Both the position numbers and the translations under genes were made by a program. Shown in pieces: positions 666 to 64,000 of a stretch of DNA of 64,000 nucleotides (positions within the stretch are counted from its first letter, which is position 1; every line of letters starts with the position of its first letter). The stretch spans positions 69,631 through 133,630 of the forward strand of contig JACRHV010000003.1 in assembly GCA_016211945.1 (NCBI GenBank), written 5' to 3'. The notes under the pieces were generated by a model. That model worked only from the letters and a program-made list of their open reading frames with translations, was not told where the DNA came from and did not search any database. The stretch comes from Minisyncoccota bacterium. Its GTDB lineage: Bacteria; Patescibacteriota; Microgenomatia; UBA1400; UBA12028.

Positions 666-2294
666 TTATGCGGGATCCTGGGTATACTCAAGACCTTTAC
701 GAATCGACTCCTCTGCCTTCTGCAGTTCAAGTCCTACATACATCATGTGACCCGGTTCGAGCATATAGTTCCAGTCGGTAATCTGCCATGCAACTTCCTG
801 TGCGGTTCTTCCCTCAAAAATCTTAATTGCAGGACCACCGTCCGGCTCAAACAATGTTGCACGGATCAATTTTCCATGTTTTTTGGGCATGGTTGGCAGT
901 GTTTTTGCAACTGCGTATGGAATTGACTGCGTTTCATACCGTTGTGAAAACATCGGCCACACATACGCCTCCTCCTCCCGAATCACCTCCACGATCACGT
1001 TGCCCCGCTTGTCGAATCCAAAATGGACGGCTGGAGAATATCCCAACTCAGACTCGTAATGCTCCATCAGTAAGTTGTCCACTAATCCAAAATCGTCTGC
1101 GTACATATGTGCGGAGTGTGTAATCATGGTGAGCGGCCCCATCTCCATTCCTGCAGAGTCGGCGATATCTTTCTGAAGCTTGCGCAATGCGAATGTGTTG
1201 CGAGGCCATCCATGTACCATATCCTGTGAACGGAAATGTGCAGTAAAGAAAAATTTATTATCTTGTACCGAGCCAAGCACCATCACTAAACACGGGGTAT
1301 CCCCTTTGTTCACCTCGTTCCAATCGCGCTTGGGATCCATGGTGGTCGCCACCATCTTCTTACTGTCCGGCCGATTTTTTAATAAATCCTTCATTGCAGC
1401 GATCTGATCCACACCCAAGTCCACCCGCATCCGTTTCCCATAGTTATACGCAACTCCCGGAATTTGGCGGCTGGTCAAAATCTCTGCGTAATACGCCTCC
1501 AGTTCCACCCGAGTAAACGGTAGATATTCCGGAAAATAAATGTCGTCGGGATTTTCATCCGTGATCACCGCAGTTAAGTTCAAAATTTCTTTGAGTGAGT
1601 TGTCTTTGCTGTACCGCGTGTGTTTTGGTCGGCCATATTTCTGAATTTCATTGAGTAGTTTCAGCCATGTTTTTGCTACCTTTGGCGCGGAAACACGGAA
1701 GCCTGTTTGTTCGGATGGCATCGTTCGCACCGTCACTTCCGACTGCGGAAACGTCCGTGTTTTTGCTGAGAAAGGTTCCATTGGGGTTGCGCTGAGTTCT
1801 CGAACCTTCTCTACAAAATCTGTTGCTTTCCTCCCGCGCATATCCACCACATCCACAACCTTGCGAAATTCTTCAACCACATCGTTTGACAACTCTTTTT
1901 CAATCTCTCCGCGTGCCGCAACAATTTTTCTTGTCTCTCCCTCGACCCCTTTCATCTTCAGCATCAACAACGAGTGGCCGGAAAGCGACATCTCCGCACC
2001 CCATATCACAATCACGCGAATGTGGGGATTCGCAAAAATATTGCGAATCATTGCATTGATTCCCTGCGCGCTATACAGATTTCCAATCGTGTTGTAGTCC
2101 ACATTTTTGAGTAGCGTTTCTACAACTTGCCGTTCTGTCCACAAACAGCACACCGCAACGTGATGTCGCGGGTTTTTCACTTTAAGAATATCTTTATAAA
2201 AAAGAGGCCAATGAGAGAGATCAATCGAGGTATTTTTGTTCGATGTCTTCACTTGGTTGAGTGATTTCTTTGCTTTTGGCATAGGAACGAGCAT
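666..2294 (-). CDS. thymidylate synthase (ThyA / dCMP-hydroxymethylase fold) family protein with ~250-aa N-terminal extension of unknown function
   Basis: C-terminal third carries ThyA-family signatures: TPCL (catalytic Cys region, PCH in ThyA), FRSQD..G.P.N (QRS.D..LG.PFN in ThyA), HSAHMY (GDAHIY in ThyA). N-terminal ~250 aa has no resemblance to DHFR or ThyA. Confidence 0.6.
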   Translation of the reverse strand: MLVPMPKAKKSLNQVKTSNKNTSIDLSHWPLFYKDILKVKNPRHHVAVCCLWTERQVVETLLKNVDYNTIGNLYSAQGINAMIRNIFANPHIRVIVIWGAEMSLSGHSLLMLKMKGVEGETRKIVAARGEIEKELSNDVVEEFRKVVDVVDMRGRKATDFVEKVRELSATPMEPFSAKTRTFPQSEVTVRTMPSEQTGFRVSAPKVAKTWLKLLNEIQKYGRPKHTRYSKDNSLKEILNLTAVITDENPDDIYFPEYLPFTRVELEAYYAEILTSRQIPGVAYNYGKRMRVDLGVDQIAAMKDLLKNRPDSKKMVATTMDPKRDWNEVNKGDTPCLVMVLGSVQDNKFFFTAHFRSQDMVHGWPRNTFALRKLQKDIADSAGMEMGPLTMITHSAHMYADDFGLVDNLLMEHYESELGYSPAVHFGFDKRGNVIVEVIREEEAYVWPMFSQRYETQSIPYAVAKTLPTMPKKHGKLIRATLFEPDGGPAIKIFEGRTAQEVAWQITDWNYMLEPGHMMYVGLELQKAEESIRKGLEYTQDPA

Positions 2295-2326
2295 ACCCGA
2301 ACACTACATAATGATCAAGTGGATCG

Positions 2327-21469: not shown

Positions 21470-21497
21470 TAAATAGATCAATTTTACGGATATGTTG

Positions 21498-21568
21498 CGG
21501 GGGTGAAAGGAATCGGACCTATGTTCGCGGTTTTGGAGACCGCTGTTCTACCACTAAACTACACCCCC
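21498..21568 (-). tRNA. tRNA-Trp (anticodon CCA)
   Basis: RNA: GGGGGTG TA GTTT AGTGGTA GAAC A GCGGT CTCCAAA ACCGC ... CACCCCC G. Anticodon loop CTCCAAA. T-loop is TCCGATT with a U-U mismatch in the T-stem. Confidence 0.7.
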
Positions 21569-23263: not shown

Positions 23264-23292
23264 ACATTCCTTCCATTGTTACTGAAATACTG

Positions 23293-23364
23293 AGCCATCT
23301 CAGGGATTCGGACCCTGGACCTGCTGTTTACAAAACAGCTGCTCTACCACTGAGCTAAGATGGC
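23293..23364 (-). tRNA. tRNA-Thr (anticodon TGT)
   Basis: RNA: GCCATCT TA GCTC AGTGGTA GAGC A GCTGT TTTGTAA ACAGC AGGTC CAGGG TCCGAAT CCCTG AGATGGC T. Canonical cloverleaf. Confidence 0.8.
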
Positions 23365-25890: not shown

Positions 25891-25914
25891 ATATCCTCTT
25901 TATTTACTTTGTTG

Positions 25915-25997
25915 TGCCAGGTGTAGGATTCGAACCTACGGAGACCGAAGCCAACAGATTTACAGTCTGTCCTCGTTGACCGCTTGAGTAACCTGGC
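25915..25997 (-). tRNA. tRNA-Tyr (anticodon GTA), type II with long variable arm
   Basis: Anticodon arm CAGACTGTAAATCTG matches bacterial tRNA-Tyr. Long variable arm TTGGCTTCGGTCTCCG; T-arm TAGGTTCGAATCCTA; acceptor GCCAGGT/ACCTGGC. Confidence 0.85.
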
Positions 25998-26083
25998 AAT
26001 GTTCTGCATTGTATCATTCTAGAAAAAGATTTGGTAGAATTTGTCGTCTCTGCCAAGTAAAATGAAGTATGCGAAGATGACGT

Positions 26084-26158
26084 GCCTGGGTAGTTTAGTG
26101 GTAAAACAAACCCTTGGTAAGGGTTAGACCGTGAGTCCGATTCTCACTCCAGGCTCCA
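26084..26158 (+). tRNA. tRNA-Thr (anticodon GGT), CCA encoded
   Basis: GCCTGGG TA GTTT AGTGGTA AAAC A AACCC TTGGTAA GGGTT AGAC CGTGAG TCCGATT CTCAC TCCAGGC T CCA. Confidence 0.8.
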
Positions 26159-56751: not shown

Positions 56752-57783
56752 ATGTTTACTCCTCAATATACAATCACCAATCACCTTCTCTCGAATATTA
56801 TCCGCATTCATGGTCTTGTCAAAGATCTTAACGATCGAAGATTTGCAAAAGTTGTGTTTGTGGAATTTGAAAAAATCGCACGTGAAGTCTCGTCTTATGC
56901 TTCAACCAGTATTGAAGGCAATCCCCTCTCACTTACAGAAGTCAAAAGAGTGTTGAAGTCAAAACCAGAACACATCCGAGATAGTGAAAAAGAAGTCCTG
57001 AATTACAATCAAGCACTTGAACACTTGAACCAATTACTTCAATCCGAAAAACTTGAACTCTCCCTCAAGCTTATCCTGAATATTCATAAACACATAACAA
57101 GAGGACTACTTCTTCGTGATGAATCCGGGAGACTGCGCAAAAATCATGTCGTGGTCCATGATCCAAGAACGGGTGAAATAGTCTACCTTCCTCCTGATGT
57201 AAATCAGGTACGCGGATTGGTGAACGACCTCATCGCTTTCGTTCAGAAAAATAGTAAGAAGATTGATCCCTTGATTCTTGCTGGTATTTTTCATAAACAC
57301 ATGGTGATTATCCATCCGTTCATGGACGGCAACGGCAGAACAACCAGACTTGTAACCAAGGTACTTTTAGCAAACATGGGATTGAACACCTTTAACCTCT
57401 TTAGTTTCGAGAATTATTACAACAAAAATGTTACAAAATACTTTCAAGCAGTTGGAGAATATGGGGACTATAATGAAGTAGCACATTCGATCAACTACAC
57501 GCTTTGGCTCGAGTATTTCACCGATGGGTTAATCGATGAATTGTTACGCGTACAAAAATTGTTACCAACATTTGGCAATACACCAGATACAACACTGGAA
57601 ATACATCATCGTAAAATGCTTGAATACATAAAACAGCATGGATTTATCCGTGATCGAGATTACGCGAAGCTCACCGAGAGGGCCAAGGCAACACGTACCA
57701 AAGACTTCCAAAAACTTCTGGACTTAGGACTCATTGAGCGTAAGGGGAAAGGAAGATCGGTCTATTACACTCAAAAAGTCTAA
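56752..57783 (+). CDS. Fic/Doc family protein (putative AMPylator)
   Basis: Canonical Fic motif HPFMDGNGRTTRL, with a helical N-domain and C-terminal winged-helix-like region. Confidence 0.8.
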   Translation: MFTPQYTITNHLLSNIIRIHGLVKDLNDRRFAKVVFVEFEKIAREVSSYASTSIEGNPLSLTEVKRVLKSKPEHIRDSEKEVLNYNQALEHLNQLLQSEKLELSLKLILNIHKHITRGLLLRDESGRLRKNHVVVHDPRTGEIVYLPPDVNQVRGLVNDLIAFVQKNSKKIDPLILAGIFHKHMVIIHPFMDGNGRTTRLVTKVLLANMGLNTFNLFSFENYYNKNVTKYFQAVGEYGDYNEVAHSINYTLWLEYFTDGLIDELLRVQKLLPTFGNTPDTTLEIHHRKMLEYIKQHGFIRDRDYAKLTERAKATRTKDFQKLLDLGLIERKGKGRSVYYTQKV

Positions 57784-57999
57784 TAAGTGGTATTGTATTT
57801 TCTCCGCAATATAGTTGCATACATTATTTCTAGTTCATTTGAAGATCATTCAGCATCATTTTTGCGGGAATAAAGGAAGAAGTTTGGGACTCATCTACTC
57901 ACCGGCACCTTCCTTTTCACTTATCGTTTTATTTCCGCATAACATGCGTGCATCATTCCAGGCTTGTTTTAGAAGAAGATTAAATGAAATCAAAGTATA

Positions 58000-58824
58000 T
58001 CAGTGTGATCGATCGAGTGAAAAGACGACAGTGGATAAACGGAGGTATTCCTGAACACATGCCACGTGGGGAAACTGCGCGCCTAACACCTGGGTTGGGA
58101 GGTCCGGATCTCGAGCAAGAAGGCTGAAAAGATCACTTGAAAGGCGAGAATATTGATGTTTTCGTCCGTCGTTCAATGCTTTTTCTTTCTGCACAACGCT
58201 TAGCAGACTTGTTGTTAATTTGCTAAGCTTCGTGTAGTCTTTGGCTCGTTCATCCAGATTCCACACCGAGCGACAGAACTCCCGTTCATCCCCAATGAGA
58301 AATCGTTTGGATTCAAGAAAAACAAAAAGGCCCATGACCTTTGCGCGCATAAGCTCGTTCTTTAACTTTTCGCCGATTGGATACGGCGAGATATAAACCG
58401 CACGCTCCAATGAGACAAATCCATGCGTTCTCAGGAGATTCCGAAGGGTCCTGTAGGCGTACAACGACTCCGGCGCATACCGAACATTTGAAAAAATGGC
58501 TAGGCGCCACGCGGCATCCCACTTTTTTTTCTTAAATACTGTTTCCGGCAAAGAAGAAAAGAGATGTTCTCTTCCGGCGGCGGTCATGCGGATAAAGATT
58601 TTTCCGGCTTGCTGGACAGTGACAACCAAACCCTGCTGCTGCATTGTGGAGACAGCACTGCGTATTGAGTTCGGGCTAAAATCGAAGAGCCTCCACTGAA
58701 GCTCTGGATAGGTGAGCAGACGTTGCGCCGCTGAGGAGAAAACGTCTGAAGGATGTTGAACCGATTCATTCTCTGGAATACTGAAAGCGAGCGAGAAAAG
58801 GAGATGCGATTTAAGATCGAGCAT
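58000..58824 (-). CDS. PaaX-family transcriptional regulator
   Basis: N-terminal wHTH-like segment and PaaX C-terminal-domain pattern KKWDAAWRLAIFSNV (W.G.W.LV.F signature). Confidence 0.5.
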   Translation of the reverse strand: MLDLKSHLLFSLAFSIPENESVQHPSDVFSSAAQRLLTYPELQWRLFDFSPNSIRSAVSTMQQQGLVVTVQQAGKIFIRMTAAGREHLFSSLPETVFKKKKWDAAWRLAIFSNVRYAPESLYAYRTLRNLLRTHGFVSLERAVYISPYPIGEKLKNELMRAKVMGLFVFLESKRFLIGDEREFCRSVWNLDERAKDYTKLSKLTTSLLSVVQKEKALNDGRKHQYSRLSSDLFSLLARDPDLPTQVLGAQFPHVACVQEYLRLSTVVFSLDRSH

Positions 58825-59320: not shown

Positions 59321-62300
59321 ATGAGCAAAGAAGAATCTGTCCAAACCATCCAACGCTCAGAGGCATTGCTCCGGCAATTCGCCGATTTTTTGGCAGCACA
59401 ACAGCTCACTGAAAAGTCGATCCGCAACTATGTTTCAGATACACGCAAGTTTTTCGATTGGCTCGGGGGGCAAAAACCCAACGGTCAGGAAGATTGGGAC
59501 TGGATCGCTTCTATCCCCCAATCTGTTCGCGCATATCGCGCCTTTCTTCTTTCCCAGGCTGCACCTCTGGCCACCATTAACCGCCATCTCTCCTCTCTCC
59601 GCCAGTTTGGCGCTTTTTTAAACACCGTTCACCAGCTTCACCTCAAGTTGGATCACCTTCAAAACGTCTCTGTCCACGTCGAGCATGAGCAAGAAGTGTC
59701 GCATGTCCTCAACCACCAGGCTATTCACGCATTCGGTTTAGCACTTGAACATGAGCAGTGCTCACAGTCCACATGCGAAAATTACCTTGGTGATATCCGC
59801 CAATTTGCCGATTTTCTTGGAACAGAGTCGCTCTTTTCTGACCGAATAAAACCCCTTGCCGTGGAGTTTACGGGAAATTTGGCAAAAAATGGGGTCGCAG
59901 AAGCAACGATTCGACGCAAAATGGTGACCCTGAAGCGATTTTATGCGTGGGCAACCAAGTCTCACTACATCAAAACAAATGTTTTTGAATCATTCGGGGA
60001 GAAAGTCGGGCGAGTTGTTGGTGAGACTGCACAAAAATTTGTGCCGTTGGCGTTTTTTGAGAGAAATCGAGAAAACCAACAAAAAACCTCATCTTCCGAT
60101 GAGGTTTATGTCTGTGAAGAGTTACGTCTCCACGCGCTTGATAACCGTAACGAACAGTCTACCAGTCAAACAGGGATCTTGTCAAGACTGTGGCGGAGGG
60201 ATAGGGATTCGAACCCTAACCCCGCTCACGCGGAGTCACATCAGGTATCAACTGAGTTCCCAACCGTTGGGATTACCCCTCCAATTGGAATGTTTGGACC
60301 GACCACCACAGAATCGTCATACTCTCAAATTGCAGATGAAAAATCAACAACATCTTACTCTATCACCAACAAAAAACCCTCTGTTTCCAGAGGGTTTTTC
60401 AATGTAGAGTTTTCTCCCTACACAGTTGATACCTGTAACGTCAAGTCTACCAAACTTCCCCATCCCCTGTCAAGGCTCTACTCCGCCTACACCCGCTGGC
60501 CAGTGAGTTCCTATCTCCATCTTGCCGTTCTCGTTCTTTTTGTCTCGATGCTTGGGATTTTTGGCTATCAACAGTTTTTCCGTGATGCCGAGCAGAAGCT
60601 CGCTTTCCCCACCTCTCTCACCAGACCAAATCGCATTCTCTCCTTCCAGGGTCGCCTCACAGACACTGCCGGCACTCCACTCACTGTTGCAACCAACTTT
60701 ACCTTCAAACTGTATGACGCACTTACCAGTGGCAATCAGCTCTGGACATCTGGGACGTGTTCAATCACTCCGGATCAAGATGGCATCTTCTCTACTTTGC
60801 TTGGGAGTAGTTGCGGAAGCGAGATAGCCTCTGGTGTGTTTAGTGAAAATCAAAATGTATATCTCGAGGTAACAGTTGCGGCGGAGACGCTCACACCAAG
60901 ACAACAGATTGCCACGGTTGGATATGCGCTGAATGCCGAAACGCTCCAAGGCTACCCCGCTTCTGCGAGTGCGGTGGAAAATACGGTCCTTGTGATGAAC
61001 AACTCTGGTCAAGTGTTATTAGGCAACGCCTCGCCCACACTCCGTTCTACTTCTGGTACATTCGCGGTTCAGGGCAATGCGCTCAATGTGTCCACTAATA
61101 CCGGCACCGGAGGAAATATTACGCTTGCTCCGGATGGCGCTGGACAAGTGAGTTTGATTGGCGGCACCACAACACAGGATTTCATCGATATTACAAACGC
61201 GAACCTCACGACGGGAAAGTTGATGAAGGGGACGGTCGGAAATAACAATACTGGGTACAAATTTTTATCATTTGTTGGCGGCTCAACTCCCTCTGAAAAG
61301 TTCTATGTCAATGCCCTTGGAGGGGTGTATGCAGGCAACTCACTTTTTGCTCCAGTGGCGACCATTAGTGCAACGAATACGAGCGCTACACCGCTCATTA
61401 TCAACGGAACTGGAGGACAAATTTTCTCAATCGCAAATGGTGGGAACATTGTGGGTGCCGGAACCTTGACTGGATTAACAGGACTAACCTCGAGTGGAAC
61501 CATCACATTCTCAGGATTAAATACCGCAGGTGCGGTTGCGTATACACAGTCTGGTGGAGTTTTAGGAGTGACGGCACAGGGCGTGTCTGGGTACTTGTTA
61601 GGATCTGGTGGAGCTGGCACACCCACATGGATTGACCCCGCAACGGTTGGAAGCAACTATTGGCAGCTTACGAACAAGGTGATTTCGCCGGGAAACTCGA
61701 CGCATGACTTAGCGGTAGGAGGAAACGCGACAAGTTCTGCGTTGTTCCAGGTTTTTGGAAACACTGGGAATGCGACAACCGCAGGAACACTGACGTTTAA
61801 TGGGGCGGCATACTCGAATAACGTGATTGCGGCAACAAAGATGTCTGGGTTACAGATTGGAAATAGTAGCACGGGGAATATTATTTTTAATGGGGGGAAA
61901 ATAGGAGTTGGAACCGCAAACCCTCAAGGAACTCTTCATGTTGCTAGTAGTGCCAATATTGATGATCTTGTTGTTAATACCGAAGCCACAACGAATAACA
62001 TTGTTGATTCTAGTTTTGAGACTGGATTGGGGGGTTGGTACGCTACTTCAGTCAATGCCACTATTACACAATCAACTACTCAATCATATGTTGGTTCTAA
62101 AAGTTTAAAAAACGTAGCCACTGCAACAAATGAAGGCGCTTATATTACCATGTCTAGTGGATTTACTGCAGGAGTTTTAAATACTTTTTCTTCCTATGGA
62201 TATTTGGAATCAGGAACAGGTTGGCATTTGGTTTTCTTCTATTACGATGGCTCCTGGCATGCAGTTAACTCGCCTACAATAACTACTGTTGGCTCTTGGG

Positions 62301-64000
62301 TCAAGACAAGTGTTACTGTTAGTTTGCCTGCTGGAACAACCCAAATTCAACCGAGATTAGTAAGTGATGGTACGGCAACAATATATTTTGATGGCGTACA
62401 ATTAGAGGCAAAAGACCATGCCAGTCCTTATGCTGATGGTTCATTAGGATCTGGTTATAGTTGGACAGGAACTCCACATGCTTCAACTTCTATACGAAGA
62501 GCTGGGACAGTTTATGCTTATCAAGCAATTAACAGCGCTGGTGGAATAGGTGCCACTTCAGGAAGTTTATATCCAACATTACAAATTGATCAAGCTGGAA
62601 CAGGTGCTCTTTTTGTTGCCTCTGTTTCTGGAACACAAAAATTTATTATTGATAACACGGGCAATGTGGGGGTTGGGACGACAAATCCGTTGAATAAATT
62701 AAATGTTGTCGCGGACACTAACGTCTATACTAGTGCTCAATCTCTGGCCGGTTTAAGAGTTGATGATGGAACAAGTGATACGGCTTTATTATTAGGTGTA
62801 AACGCAGCTGGAGATGCGACTTACATTCAAGGTGTTCAACCACTAATATCTTGGACAAATCGTCCAATTTTATTACAGCCAAATGGTGGTAACGTCGGCA
62901 TCGGCAACACATCCCCTACCTACAAACTTGACGTCACCGGCTCTGCTTCGGTCTCTGCCAACCTCATGGCCGGTGGTCAAGTCCAACTCGGAAGATTCGG
63001 CGCAAATCCAACCGGCATTGGCGCGGGCGCGCTCTACTTCAACACCACAGACAGCAAGATTTACTACTACGACGGATCGAGTTGGTCACAAGTTGGATCG
63101 GGCGCAGGAGGAAACAATAGCCCATGGGATGAGTTAAACGGCACAATTGTCCCCAAAAACTCGACAGAAGATGTGTTGATTGGTGGTCAAGCAACAACCT
63201 CGGCAAAATTTGCGTTCTTAAATGTAAACACCGGCACACCGGTCGCAAGTTTCTCTGGAAACCTCACACTTACTCCTGCAACTTCTGCCATCATCCAAAC
63301 CACCAACATGATTCCATTGGTCATTGGCTCGGCATCAACCGGATCTATCCAGCTCTCGCCAAAAGCATCCACCGGCTTGTTCATCAACGGTTCTGGAAAC
63401 GTGGGCATCGGCAACACCGCACCAACGGTGGCACTCGACGTGACCGGCCAAGGCAAGTTCTCGTCGCTCGTTACCGCATCAAACGCACTCACTGTGACCA
63501 CCGGCCTTACGCAAGCGCTTGGTGGTCTCACGGTCTCCGGCAACAGCGTGGCGGCATCAGGACAAAACTTTGAGGCGTTTGTCACCTCTGGAACAGCGTA
63601 TGTTCAAGGGTATGATCGAGGCGGATCGGCATACATCCCACTCAACATTGCCGGTTCATACACCAAGTTCTCCAACGGAAGCGTTGGGATTGGTACCTCT
63701 GGTGCACCGGCAGAAAAACTCGAGATCAATGCTGGTGCGGCCGCAGGAGGGATTCGATTAAACGCAGATACCGGTGTTGATACGCGTTTGGTGTTCTATG
63801 AAAATGCCGTCTTAAAGGCAGGCCTCACCTACACCACAAGCGACGCAACCTTCCGCCTCTCCAATGCTGGAAGCGATATTGTGACACTCACGAGCGCGGG
63901 AAAAGTCGGCGTTGGAAACACCGCACCAGACGGTAAATTCCAAGTCACGGGTGCGGCAGTTGGAAAAGCGCTCGCCATCTTGAACGAAACTGGCGACCAA
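59321..64000 (+). CDS. giant open reading frame, 3'-truncated by the window end. Contents: N-terminal tandem integrase core-binding (SAM-like) domains; an embedded antisense tRNA-like element; a TM helix; tail-fibre/beta-helix-like repeats with a CBM4/9-like module
   Basis: Checked codon by codon: ATG at 59321 (RBS CCAGAGGAAA; in-frame TAA at 59306) to 64000 with no stop (1560 codons). The ORF track does not list it, consistent with omitting ORFs that lack a stop. Alternative model: a decayed integrase-N-terminal ORF plus a separate giant gene starting at ATG 60290 just past the tRNA-like element. TM helix VSSYLHLAVLVLFVSMLGIFGY at ~60500..60570. Confidence 0.6.
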   Translation, partial: MSKEESVQTIQRSEALLRQFADFLAAQQLTEKSIRNYVSDTRKFFDWLGGQKPNGQEDWDWIASIPQSVRAYRAFLLSQAAPLATINRHLSSLRQFGAFLNTVHQLHLKLDHLQNVSVHVEHEQEVSHVLNHQAIHAFGLALEHEQCSQSTCENYLGDIRQFADFLGTESLFSDRIKPLAVEFTGNLAKNGVAEATIRRKMVTLKRFYAWATKSHYIKTNVFESFGEKVGRVVGETAQKFVPLAFFERNRENQQKTSSSDEVYVCEELRLHALDNRNEQSTSQTGILSRLWRRDRDSNPNPAHAESHQVSTEFPTVGITPPIGMFGPTTTESSYSQIADEKSTTSYSITNKKPSVSRGFFNVEFSPYTVDTCNVKSTKLPHPLSRLYSAYTRWPVSSYLHLAVLVLFVSMLGIFGYQQFFRDAEQKLAFPTSLTRPNRILSFQGRLTDTAGTPLTVATNFTFKLYDALTSGNQLWTSGTCSITPDQDGIFSTLLGSSCGSEIASGVFSENQNVYLEVTVAAETLTPRQQIATVGYALNAETLQGYPASASAVENTVLVMNNSGQVLLGNASPTLRSTSGTFAVQGNALNVSTNTGTGGNITLAPDGAGQVSLIGGTTTQDFIDITNANLTTGKLMKGTVGNNNTGYKFLSFVGGSTPSEKFYVNALGGVYAGNSLFAPVATISATNTSATPLIINGTGGQIFSIANGGNIVGAGTLTGLTGLTSSGTITFSGLNTAGAVAYTQSGGVLGVTAQGVSGYLLGSGGAGTPTWIDPATVGSNYWQLTNKVISPGNSTHDLAVGGNATSSALFQVFGNTGNATTAGTLTFNGAAYSNNVIAATKMSGLQIGNSSTGNIIFNGGKIGVGTANPQGTLHVASSANIDDLVVNTEATTNNIVDSSFETGLGGWYATSVNATITQSTTQSYVGSKSLKNVATATNEGAYITMSSGFTAGVLNTFSSYGYLESGTGWHLVFFYYDGSWHAVNSPTITTVGSWVKTSVTVSLPAGTTQIQPRLVSDGTATIYFDGVQLEAKDHASPYADGSLGSGYSWTGTPHASTSIRRAGTVYAYQAINSAGGIGATSGSLYPTLQIDQAGTGALFVASVSGTQKFIIDNTGNVGVGTTNPLNKLNVVADTNVYTSAQSLAGLRVDDGTSDTALLLGVNAAGDATYIQGVQPLISWTNRPILLQPNGGNVGIGNTSPTYKLDVTGSASVSANLMAGGQVQLGRFGANPTGIGAGALYFNTTDSKIYYYDGSSWSQVGSGAGGNNSPWDELNGTIVPKNSTEDVLIGGQATTSAKFAFLNVNTGTPVASFSGNLTLTPATSAIIQTTNMIPLVIGSASTGSIQLSPKASTGLFINGSGNVGIGNTAPTVALDVTGQGKFSSLVTASNALTVTTGLTQALGGLTVSGNSVAASGQNFEAFVTSGTAYVQGYDRGGSAYIPLNIAGSYTKFSNGSVGIGTSGAPAEKLEINAGAAAGGIRLNADTGVDTRLVFYENAVLKAGLTYTTSDATFRLSNAGSDIVTLTSAGKVGVGNTAPDGKFQVTGAAVGKALAILNETGDQ
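60191..60282 (-). tRNA. tRNA-like element (type-II-like, CCA encoded) with anomalous anticodon arm, embedded antisense in the giant ORF
   Basis: Perfect T-arm TAGGG-TTCGAAT-CCCTA. 7-bp acceptor GGAGGGG/TCCCTCC (one G-U) plus G-CCA. D-arm TCCC-AACGGTT-GGGA. 7-bp extra-arm hairpin ACTCCGC-GTGA-GCGGGGT. The only foldable anticodon arm reads loop TTGATAC (GAT, Ile-like) with a C-U mismatch, which is abnormal for a long-variable-arm tRNA. Confidence 0.5.
61895..63952 (+). repeat. recurrent tail-fibre-like motif G-(N/K)-(V/I)-G-(V/I)-G-(T/N)-(T/A)-x-P-x-x-(K/A/T)-L-x-V-x-G in the giant ORF
   Basis: Copies at 61895..61950 (GKIGVGTANPQGTLHVAS), 62660..62707 (GNVGVGTTNPLNKLNV), 62888..62941 (GNVGIGNTSPTYKLDVTG), 63395..63449 (GNVGIGNTAPTVALDVTG), 63899..63952 (GKVGVGNTAPDGKFQVTG). 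Confidence 0.6.

What the first reader, a model, noticed from the sequence alone, without database searches (positions are those of the whole stretch)
60191..60282. Near-perfect tRNA-like element antisense inside the giant ORF, with an Ile-like anticodon loop on a long-variable-arm scaffold
The minus strand encodes a canonical T-arm (GGTTCGAATCC), a 7-bp acceptor stem, discriminator plus CCA, a D-arm, and a 7-bp extra-arm hairpin. This is far too much structure for chance. Yet the only possible anticodon arm reads GAT with a mismatch, which no standard type-II tRNA has. It sits right after integrase-N-terminal-like domains, the classical position of a tRNA attachment site for an integrative element. 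It could be a functional odd tRNA, a tRNA pseudogene used as an att site, or a tRNA-like regulatory structure.
Basis: seen in the sequence. Interest (0 to 1): 0.7.

Follow-up and report, generated by a model that had tools for sequence, protein, structure and literature searches.

The report
Serine-type tRNA with isoleucine anticodon
An intact, oddly shaped tRNA gene that should carry serine but reads isoleucine codons lies backwards inside a giant surface-protein gene of an uncultivated (CPR) bacterium without breaking that gene, next to a small RNA that exactly matches its anticodon loop.

Summary
Window 60191-60282 (-) is a 92-nt cloverleaf: ARAGORN calls tRNA-Ile(GAT), and Rfam tRNA gives 37.8 bits in a sensitive scan only.

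It does lie antisense inside a real giant ORF. Orthologues in 80+ Microgenomates (CPR) genomes fuse the same two integrase-SAM-like domains, a TM helix and a huge surface protein. None of them carries the tRNA. The window has about 312-342 extra, frame-preserving nucleotides, stop-free in the host frame (8/5000 shuffles).

The att-site idea is not supported. The SAM domains belong to the surface protein, no integrase catalytic domain was found, and no second copy of the 3' half exists in the window.

The tRNA matches the published allo-tRNA class: long D-stem with a small GG loop, 7-9-bp variable arm, G1-C72, G2-C71, G73, and a 12-bp acceptor/T branch foldable as 8/4 or 9/3. Models built only from published allo-tRNAs score it 47.8 and 45.8 bits, like E. 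coli tRNA-Sec and 12-17 bits above canonical tRNA-Ser. It should be serylated and read AUC/AUU as Ser.

Two paralogous promoter-sRNA-terminator units flank it. One has a hairpin 13/13 complementary to the anticodon stem-loop.

No relative was found, so function is inferred.

The parts
60191..60282 (-). 92-nt allo-tRNA-like tRNA gene. Anticodon GAU lies at 60249-60247. Discriminator is G and CCA is encoded. The 12-bp acceptor/T branch can be drawn as 7/5, 8/4 or 9/3.
   Evidence: ARAGORN. Rfam tRNA 37.8 bits. MFE is the 9/3 cloverleaf at -41.7 kcal/mol. Allo-tRNA covariance models give 47.8 and 45.8 bits, the top hit in the window.
60242..60254 (-). Anticodon stem-loop core, tRNA nt 29-41, CAGUUGAUACCUG. 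It is the exact complement of the sRNA-A hairpin.
60441..60475 (-). Promoter A: TTGACA, 18-nt spacer, TAGACT, with a TG extension.
   Evidence: 10 of 12 match. It is one of only four TG-extended sites with at least 10/12 matches in 128 kb scanned.
60365..60437 (-). Predicted small RNA A, about 70 nt. It has a 5' hairpin ACAG-GUAUCAA-CUGU (60422-60436), a middle hairpin (60402-60423), and an intrinsic terminator plus U6 tract (60371-60399).
   Evidence: Sequence. Fold. 13/13 complementarity to the tRNA, reached by 0 of 2000 shuffles. Coordinates.
60283..60370 (-). 88-nt spacer between terminator A and the tRNA 5' end. It has no recognisable promoter. In the host frame it encodes a Ser/Thr-rich linker.
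60153..60187 (-). Promoter B, with the same hexamers and spacing as promoter A. It starts 4 nt after the tRNA's CCA end.
60075..60149 (-). Predicted small RNA B, a paralogue of A. It keeps UAUCAA (within 60135-60147), a middle hairpin (60114-60133), and a terminator plus U6 tract (60081-60107).
   Evidence: Repeats D3 and D6, spacing 288-290. Alignment. Pair counts show 4 compensatory pairs in the terminator.
60062..60484 (+). Segment of the giant ORF with no counterpart in any orthologue. It forms the extra linker and contains all the parts listed above. It is stop-free in the host frame.
   Evidence: Window linker is 481 nt against 169 nt in L002. No blastn similarity in 84 loci. 8 of 5000 shuffles are stop-free. 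Linker-like codon periodicity.
59321..64000 (+). Host gene, running off the window end. It comprises 2x Phage_int_SAM domains (59321 to about 60043), a linker, a TM helix (about 60500-60580), and a giant repetitive surface protein.

Best explanation
SHOWN. A structurally intact tRNA gene of the allo-tRNA / tRNA-Sec-like shape class sits on the minus strand inside a lineage-specific segment of about 420 bp. That segment also holds two paralogous promoter-small RNA-terminator units. The segment lies in the cytoplasmic linker of a conserved giant surface-protein gene of a Microgenomates (CPR/Patescibacteria) bacterium. It keeps that gene's reading frame open, so both strands carry information.

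INFERRED MECHANISM. The tRNA is made from the minus strand, probably by read-through from promoter A, since it has no promoter of its own. It is then processed and charged by seryl-tRNA synthetase, which reads the long variable arm, G1-C72, G2-C71 and G73 and ignores the anticodon. With anticodon GAU it would insert Ser at AUC/AUU (Ile) codons, making it a natural missense tRNA like the published allo-tRNAs.

FURTHER INFERRED. Its dose or activity is held down in two ways. The strong terminator upstream limits transcription. Small RNA A (and more weakly B) has a 5' hairpin loop, GUAUCAA, that can pair with the anticodon loop UUGAUAC and up to 13 contiguous bases, masking the anticodon.
For: The tRNA is real and intact. 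T-loop UUCGAAU, G18G19, U33, A37, G53-C61 and CCA are all present. The single stem mismatch is at 27.43, a position often unpaired in functional bacterial tRNAs (PMC13092985).

Allo-tRNA likeness comes from an element-by-element comparison with 16 published sequences. Covariance models built only from those sequences score it 47.8 bits (9/3 model) and 45.8 bits (8/4 model), top of the window. Ordinary tRNAs score 10-32 bits. Controls: E. coli tRNA-Sec 44.2/51.1 and canonical tRNA-Ser 30.5/33.9.

Ser identity elements follow PMC9976931. Allo-tRNAs are shown to insert Ser at non-Ser codons in PMC5389517.

Host gene and insertion. Flanking units. Anticodon complementarity.
Against: No relative of the tRNA or of the units was found in genome, metagenome, viral, phage or plasmid collections. 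There is therefore no covariation, no sign of conservation, and no test of whether the sRNA loop co-varies with the anticodon.

Unlike every published allo-tRNA, this one can also be drawn as a canonical 7/5 cloverleaf. The three registers differ by less than 3 kcal/mol.

Its D-loop has 3 or 5 nt, not 4, and its anticodon stem is short, not long. It has no promoter of its own and sits behind a strong terminator.

Unit B keeps only 6 nt of complementarity, which is not significant alone. There are no expression data. The rest of the genome is unseen, so the normal tRNA-Ile and tRNA-Ser genes, SerRS and any further copies are unknown.
Confidence: 0.5

Rival explanations
1. It is a non-translational tRNA-like RNA. 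It is made and perhaps charged, but it acts as a regulatory or addiction-module RNA rather than as a decoder. This matches what was proposed for the inactive allo-tRNA(UAU) group.
For: PMC5389517 reports allo-tRNA(UAU) species that fail in translation and are linked to transposons or toxin-antitoxin loci, one of them overlapping an ORF. Here there is an orphan cassette, flanking sRNAs complementary to the anticodon arm, no promoter of its own, and a Fic/DOC gene about 2.4 kb away.
Against: The cloverleaf is nearly perfect and all elements needed for translation are present. The inactive published species had several disrupted pairs or five-way junctions.
Confidence: 0.22
2. It is a passenger or decaying relic. 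A tRNA-Ser/allo-tRNA-derived sequence was captured in a variable linker and now matters only as linker-coding sequence.
For: It is absent from all 84 orthologous loci. The region has linker-like codon periodicity and is translated in frame. No expression evidence exists.
Against: A 92-nt cloverleaf with one mismatch and all invariant loop bases would erode quickly if only a disordered linker were under selection. The two flanking units keep near-consensus promoters and terminator hairpins through four compensatory changes, which argues for selection on the minus-strand RNAs.
Confidence: 0.15
3. It is a genuine isoleucine tRNA of unusual shape, charged by IleRS through its GAU anticodon.
For: The anticodon G34-A35-U36 with A37 and C29-G41 are IleRS determinants in E. 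coli (PMC9976931).
Against: The discriminator is G, whereas E. coli tRNA-Ile has A73 (own knowledge), and the review lists the discriminator as a strong Ile determinant. C4-G69 and the 12-23 determinant pair (written U12-G23 in the review) are absent. The long variable arm with G73, G1-C72 and G2-C71 is the SerRS signature. Orthologous genomes manage without a tRNA at this locus.
Confidence: 0.07
4. It is a tRNA pseudogene marking the attachment site of an integrative element.
For: SAM-like integrase domains lie upstream. The last 29 nt equal the 3' end of a tRNA-Ser(UGA) fragment at a viral contig (L086), which shows that such 3' halves are used as att sites elsewhere.
Against: The SAM domains belong to a conserved surface protein without a catalytic domain. 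No duplicated 3' half exists in the window. The tRNA is complete and is itself the inserted material. The direct repeats flanking it are the sRNA units, not tRNA fragments.
Confidence: 0.04
5. It is an assembly chimera joining unrelated DNA inside the giant gene.
For: Contigs of relatives often break inside this repetitive gene.
Against: Both junctions are in frame. The extra DNA is a multiple of three and stop-free. It shows host-like linker periodicity.
Confidence: 0.02

Closest known systems
allo-tRNAs (8/4 and 9/3 tRNAs; Mukai et al., Nucleic Acids Res 2017, PMC5389517)
   Same: GGAG...CUCC-G-CCA acceptor end. Long tRNA-Sec-like D-stem with a small GG loop. Long variable arm. G73. 12-bp acceptor/T branch that folds as 8/4 or 9/3. 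Non-serine anticodon on a serine-identity body. Overlap with an ORF has a precedent (Edaphobacter allo-tRNA-UAU pseudogene). Scores like a family member with models built from published sequences.
   Different: It can also be drawn 7/5. The D-loop is 3 or 5 nt, not 4. The anticodon stem is 4 bp rather than lengthened. The phylum is CPR/Microgenomates; published ones come from Clostridia, Proteobacteria and Acidobacteria, and the paper's text mentions neither CPR nor a GAU anticodon. It is embedded in frame in a conserved gene and is flanked by sRNA units complementary to its anticodon arm.
Bacterial tRNA-Sec (selC)
   Same: Long D-stem, long variable arm and G73. Similar scores with the allo-tRNA models.
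   Different: tRNA-Sec has a 13-bp branch (8/5), a 6-bp anticodon stem and a UCA anticodon. This tRNA has 12 bp, a 4-bp stem and GAU.
Canonical bacterial tRNA-Ser
   Same: Acceptor stem, discriminator, T-arm and a long variable arm. The last 29 nt are identical to a tRNA-Ser(UGA) 3' fragment (L086).
   Different: The D-arm is a long stem with a small loop, not a short stem with a large loop. There is an extra nucleotide in the 8-9 connector if drawn 7/5. The anticodon is Ile. It scores 12-17 bits above E. coli tRNA-Ser with the allo models.
Loop-loop ('kissing') antisense control, e.g. ColE1 RNAI/RNAII, and T-box specifier-anticodon pairing (own knowledge)
   Same: A 7-nt hairpin loop is fully complementary to another 7-nt loop. 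As in T-box leaders, a codon (AUC) followed by A is presented to an anticodon, upstream of a terminator.
   Different: No T-box sequence, Stem I platform or antiterminator is present, and Rfam gives no T-box hit at E<=10. The RNAI hit (23.7 bits against a gathering score of 47) rests on the terminator. The partner here is a tRNA encoded 140 nt downstream.
Rickettsia palindromic elements: selfish DNA inserted in frame in protein genes (Ogata et al. 2000; own knowledge)
   Same: Extra DNA inside a conserved ORF that preserves the frame and is translated as a tolerated peptide segment.
   Different: RPEs are multicopy and encode no RNA genes. Here there is a single copy carrying a tRNA and two sRNA units on the opposite strand.

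Membership tests
allo-tRNA (Mukai 2017) | 12-bp acceptor/T branch arranged 8/4 or 9/3 instead of 7/5 | tested here: inconclusive
   All 12 pairs form in the 8/4 and 9/3 registers, and 9/3 is the MFE. A 7/5 register also pairs fully (5/5 T-stem), unlike all 16 published sequences (3-4 of 5). Connector counts favour 8/4: 2 nt to the D-stem and one nt 48. There are no homologues for covariation.
allo-tRNA (Mukai 2017) | Long tRNA-Sec-like D-stem with a small (tetra)loop containing GG | tested here: met
   UCCCAA-CGG-UUGGGA gives 6 bp and a 3-nt loop, or 5 bp and ACGGU. Published sequences have 4-7 bp and a 4-nt YGGN loop. The loop length is off by one.
allo-tRNA (Mukai 2017) | Long variable arm | tested here: met
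   7-9-bp stem with a GUGA loop. Published sequences have 5-8 bp.
allo-tRNA (Mukai 2017) | Discriminator G73 (or U73), giving Ser identity independent of the anticodon | tested here: met
   G73, G1-C72 and G2-C71 are present. Identity rules come from PMC9976931. Actual charging was not tested.
allo-tRNA (Mukai 2017) | Lengthened anticodon stem | tested here: not met
   4 bp plus a C27.U43 mismatch. One published 9/3 member (S055) also parses with 4 bp, so the feature is not universal.
allo-tRNA (Mukai 2017) | Overall sequence and structure similarity to family members | tested here: met
   Models built without this sequence score it 47.8 bits (9/3) and 45.8 bits (8/4), end to end and top of the window. 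Canonical tRNA-Ser scores 30.5/33.9 and tRNA-Sec 44.2/51.1. The models do not separate it from tRNA-Sec.
allo-tRNA (Mukai 2017) | Inserts Ser (or Ala) at the codon read by its anticodon | not testable with these tools
   Needs a reporter assay or aminoacylation assay.
Bacterial tRNA-Sec | 13-bp branch (8/5), UCA (or other) anticodon used with SelA/SelB | tested here: not met
   Only 12 pairs are available, because A81 is shared between the 8th acceptor pair and the 5th T pair. The anticodon is GAU.
T-box riboswitch | Stem I with specifier loop, plus a T-box antiterminator pairing with NCCA | tested here: not met
   No Rfam T-box match at E<=10 in 59800-60700. No UGGC bulge or antiterminator alternative is seen in the sequence.
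tRNA attachment site of an integrative element | Tyrosine integrase with catalytic domain adjacent, and a duplicated tRNA 3' segment at the other end | tested here: not met
   Only SAM-like domains are present, as part of a surface protein. No second copy exists within 64 kb at up to 3 mismatches.

The most novel reading that the evidence does not exclude
The cassette is an RNA-only addiction or control module. A stable missense tRNA (Ser at Ile codons) acts as the toxic component. Short-lived small RNAs, whose 7-nt hairpin loop is the exact complement of its anticodon loop, mask it. The whole module is written on the antisense strand of a giant gene, in a form that the gene can translate through. 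This would be the first tRNA-toxin/sRNA-antitoxin pair, and it would explain the reported association of allo-tRNAs with toxin-antitoxin loci.
Probability: 0.12. Interest if true: 0.85.

Novelty: new variant of a known kind. Interest (0 to 1): 0.62.

Why it matters
Natural tRNAs whose amino-acid identity contradicts their anticodon challenge the assumption that each sense codon has a single meaning. Allo-tRNAs are the main bacterial example, and their biology is still unknown.

This case would extend them to the CPR/Patescibacteria, organisms with minimal translation machinery. It also gives a concrete and testable control idea: an adjacent small RNA complementary to the anticodon loop.

It is also a clean example of two-strand coding, with a complete tRNA and two sRNA units read one way and a tolerated protein linker read the other way.

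On the practical side, fragments of this surface-protein family are named 'site-specific integrase, partial' in public records.

Tried and rejected
1. Genome collection scan with a tRNA-anchored degenerate pattern: 0 hits, although the pattern is valid on the window.
2. Metagenome scan with the D-hairpin plus T-loop: 7 hits, all chance hairpins upstream of ordinary tRNA-Thr or tRNA-Pro genes.
3. Viral scans with the D-arm, the unit pattern and the D-hairpin plus T-loop: 0 hits. The 3'-half pattern hit only a tRNA-Ser fragment.
4. blastn of the cassette against phages and plasmids: nothing meaningful.
5. A concatenate of published allo-tRNAs against plasmids and phages, to find natural loci and test for flanking anti-anticodon hairpins: no match.
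6. ARAGORN and the allo-tRNA model over 84 orthologous loci: no tRNA.
7. Orthologues with long linkers, checked for other insertions: only low-complexity linkers.
8. The protein search of the N-terminal 460 aa, which includes the cassette-encoded peptide, returned only six homologues (query coverage 14-70%) and no separate protein matching the cassette-encoded segment.
9. My first reading of five compensatory pairs in the units' middle hairpin was wrong. The two copies pair in registers shifted by two columns. In the homologous register that helix has only one-sided changes.
10. Thermodynamics cannot choose between the 7/5, 8/4 and 9/3 registers.
11. The Logan contig carrying the neighbouring gene ends before the giant gene, so there is no independent assembly of the cassette.
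12. The terminator scan missed terminator A because it extends the stem into the U-tract. I identified it by eye and by folding.
Full report
**1. The observation**

The minus strand of 60191-60282 reads GGAGGGGUAAUCCCAACGGUUGGGAACUCAGUUGAUACCUGAUGUGACUCCGCGUGAGCGGGGUUAGGGUUCGAAUCCCUAUCCCUCCGCCA. ARAGORN calls a 92-nt tRNA-Ile(gat) at exactly these coordinates. The Rfam tRNA model misses it in the default gathering scan of the window. In a sensitive scan it scores 37.8 bits against a gathering score of 29, E=3e-6. The six ordinary tRNAs of the window score 56-70 bits.

- a 7-bp acceptor with one G-U pair;
- discriminator G and an encoded CCA;
- T-loop UUCGAAU;
- a D-loop with GG;
- a long extra arm closed by GUGA;
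- an anticodon loop UUGAUAC on a stem with a C27.U43 mismatch.

The fold is more stable than shuffles (z=-2.95). A 27.43 mismatch is reported as common in functional bacterial tRNAs (PMC13092985).

**2. The giant ORF is real and the tRNA lies inside it**

A stop-free frame runs from 59309 to the window end. It starts with two Phage_int_SAM domains (E=3e-20). After about 160 odd-looking codons it continues with a TM helix and a large repetitive protein that has no Pfam match.

I first suspected an accidental fusion of two genes. Homologues say otherwise. All six proteins found with the N-terminal 460 aa carry SAM domains, a linker, the same TM helix (..YLHLAVLVL..GYQQFF) and the motif AFPTSLTRPNRxLSFQGRLTD in one ORF. 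A scan of one genome per species found 362 relatives. The 80 best are mostly Microgenomates, Woesebacteria and Collierbacteria, and the closest is 85% identical. In 83 loci the region before SFQGRL has a median of about 320 aa. The nearest relatives have 340-361 aa and the window has 444. Other genes in the window (TopA, PBP2, ArgRS, LeuRS) show that this is a bacterial chromosome.

**3. The tRNA is part of extra DNA that keeps the frame**

The window's linker is 481 nt against 169 nt in the syntenic locus L002. The 312-nt difference is exactly 104 codons. No orthologous locus shares any DNA similarity with 60000-60488. None has a tRNA by ARAGORN or by an allo-tRNA covariance model.

The 423-nt non-homologous segment is stop-free in the host frame. 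Only 8 of 5000 dinucleotide-preserving shuffles achieve that. In that frame the second codon position is C-rich, 0.35 overall and 0.50 in the 88-nt stretch between terminator A and the tRNA. That is a Ser/Thr/Pro-rich linker signature. The giant gene therefore appears to be translated through the cassette, and the segment is not a raw recent insertion.

A second plus frame is also almost stop-free (1 stop). I cannot explain that.

**4. What flanks the tRNA**

On the tRNA's strand there are two paralogous units 288-290 nt apart (repeats D3 and D6). Each unit has:
- TTGACA, an 18-nt spacer, and TAGACT with a TG extension (10/12 match). These are two of only four TG-extended sites of that quality in 128 kb scanned.
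- About 70 nt of transcript beginning CGUUAC.G.UAUCAA.
- A middle hairpin.
- An intrinsic terminator hairpin followed by U6.

The terminator stems differ at four of seven pairs, all by compensatory double changes. Overall 93.8% of cells pair, with 5 double changes, against 0-1 in slid controls. My first impression of many compensatory changes in the middle hairpin was an artefact of a 2-column register shift and I withdraw it.

The order on the minus strand is: promoter A, sRNA A, terminator A, 88 nt, tRNA, 4 nt, promoter B, sRNA B, terminator B (coordinates).

The tRNA has no promoter of its own. The ordinary tRNAs have TGnTAYAAT 5-26 nt upstream. Five of the six lack an encoded CCA, which the odd tRNA has.

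**5. The anti-anticodon hairpin**

sRNA A contains CAGGUAUCAACUG (60435-60423). This is the exact reverse complement of tRNA nucleotides 29-41, which are three stem pairs plus the whole anticodon loop. None of 2000 shuffles of the unit reaches 13 nt.

The identity stops sharply at both ends, so it is not the remnant of a longer inverted duplication. In sRNA A it forms the first hairpin, ACAG-GUAUCAA-CUGU, whose 7-nt loop shows the Ile codon AUC followed by A.

The 13-mer duplex is worth -19.8 kcal/mol. The 5' 22 nt of sRNA A pair with the odd tRNA at -24.7 kcal/mol, against -7 to -19 for the six ordinary tRNAs. Unit B keeps UAUCAA only, which is not significant alone.

**6. What kind of tRNA it is**

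The MFE is not the canonical cloverleaf. It has a 9-bp acceptor, a 3-bp T-stem, a 6-bp D-stem and a 9-bp variable arm. That pointed to allo-tRNAs (PMC5389517): tRNA-Sec-like tRNAs with an 8/4 or 9/3 branch, a long D-stem, a long V-arm, G73 or U73 and mostly non-Ser anticodons. Several have been shown to insert Ser at Leu or stop codons in E. coli, they are toxic when induced, and they are often found near toxin-antitoxin genes. One pseudogene overlaps an ORF.

I took 16 natural allo-tRNA chassis (nine 9/3, seven 8/4, anticodons engineered to CUA) from a supplement (PMC7590224) and parsed them element by element. All have D-stems of 4-7 bp with a 4-nt GG loop, V-stems of 5-8 bp, G73 and mostly GGAG starts. 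The window's tRNA matches: for example S012 is GGAGGGGAA...GGGUUCGAUUCCC-UUCCCCUCC-G-CCA.

It differs in three respects. Its D-loop is one nucleotide off. Its anticodon stem is short. It alone can also be drawn 7/5. Energies are -38.9 (7/5), -39.2 (8/4) and -41.7 (9/3) kcal/mol, which is too close to decide. Connector lengths favour 8/4.

Covariance models built from the published sequences only, with anticodons masked, gave these scores:

| tRNA | 9/3 model (bits) | 8/4 model (bits) |
|---|---|---|
| Window's odd tRNA | 47.8 | 45.8 |
| Ordinary tRNAs of the window | 10-32 | 11-28 |
| E. coli tRNA-Sec | 44.2 | 51.1 |
| E. coli tRNA-Ser (canonical) | 30.5 | 33.9 |

The tRNA therefore belongs to the tRNA-Sec-like/allo shape class, not to canonical tRNA-Ser. 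It is not tRNA-Sec, because only 12 branch pairs are available, not 13. Its last 29 nt equal the 3' end of a tRNA-Ser(UGA) fragment on a viral contig, which ties the acceptor and T-arm to tRNA-Ser ancestry.

**7. Likely amino-acid identity**

[quoted passage not shown] G1-C72 and G2-C71 are conserved in bacterial tRNA-Ser. [quoted passage not shown] All of these are present here.

Isoleucine identity needs the anticodon and the discriminator. E. coli tRNA-Ile has A73 (own knowledge), and here it is G. The minor determinant C29-G41 is present, while C4-G69 and the 12-23 determinant pair are not.

Serylation, and therefore Ser at AUC/AUU codons, is the most likely outcome. Some Ile charging cannot be excluded.

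**8. Mechanism and rivals**

Best reading (confidence about 0.5): a missense allo-tRNA-like gene in a small RNA cassette. It is expressed at low level by read-through of terminator A, and sRNA A can mask its anticodon.

Rivals:
- a non-decoding tRNA-like RNA (0.22);
- a passenger relic (0.15);
- a true tRNA-Ile (0.07);
- an att-site relic (0.04);
- an assembly artefact (0.02).

The att-site idea fails because the SAM domains belong to the surface protein, no catalytic domain or second tRNA half was found, and the tRNA is the inserted material.

**9. Limits**

No relative of the tRNA or the units was found in any collection. There is therefore no covariation and no test of anticodon/loop co-variation. 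There are no expression data, and the rest of the genome is unseen. Function is inferred from anatomy and from what published allo-tRNAs do.

**10. Verdict**

This is a real, intact, unusual tRNA gene and a new variant of the allo-tRNA kind. What is new is the phylum (the paper's text mentions neither CPR nor a GAU anticodon), the in-frame antisense residence in a conserved giant gene, and a neighbouring small RNA complementary to the anticodon stem-loop. Interest is 0.62.

Noticed in passing
window 59321-64000 (+); loci L002-L085: There is a large protein family with two integrase-type SAM-like domains at the cytoplasmic N-terminus, a TM helix and a huge repetitive extracellular part. The window shows 507-nt repeats at 62887, 63394 and 63898 with the motif GNVGIGNTxP..KLDVTG. 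The family is widespread in Microgenomates (362 species representatives). Public records name fragments 'site-specific integrase, partial', although no catalytic domain is seen.
   Followed up: partly
window 21497-21568, 23292-23364, 26084-26158: Three ordinary tRNAs (Trp, Thr-UGU, Thr-GGU) have the T-loop GGUCCGA. That puts C at position 55, where U (pseudouridine) is almost universal. Two published 8/4 allo-tRNAs share UCCGA.
   Followed up: no
window 59934-60404 (+), a second frame: A second plus-strand frame across the cassette is also nearly stop-free (1 stop), while the third has 11 and all three minus frames have 8. None of 5000 shuffles gave two stop-free frames. This is unexplained.
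   Followed up: partly
L086 311-about 370 (IMGVR_UViG_2921754585_000005): This is the 3' part of a tRNA-Ser(UGA), from the anticodon loop to CCA, without a matching 5' half. It is probably a prophage attachment-site remnant. Its last 29 nt are identical to the window's odd tRNA.
   Followed up: partly
window 60179-60193 and 60467-60490 (+): The antisense -35 box CTTGACA of both units encodes 'LSR' of the host motif L[ST]RLY, which is conserved in orthologues. This suggests that the duplication which produced the two units included host coding sequence.
   Followed up: partly
window 669-2303 (-): One ORF combines MtrA-like, thymidylate synthase and pterin-binding (DUF4346) domains. This is an unusual fusion.
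   Followed up: no
window 56752-58824: A Fic/DOC protein with a C-terminal HTH, and a PaaX-like regulator, lie just upstream of the giant gene. The PaaX-like gene is syntenic in relatives. Fic was not listed in the L003 locus.
   Followed up: no
window 25914-26158: tRNA-Tyr (-) and tRNA-Thr-GGU (+) are divergently arranged around an 86-nt spacer, with facing TGnTACAAT-type -10 boxes. Thr-GGU is the only ordinary tRNA here with an encoded CCA.
   Followed up: no
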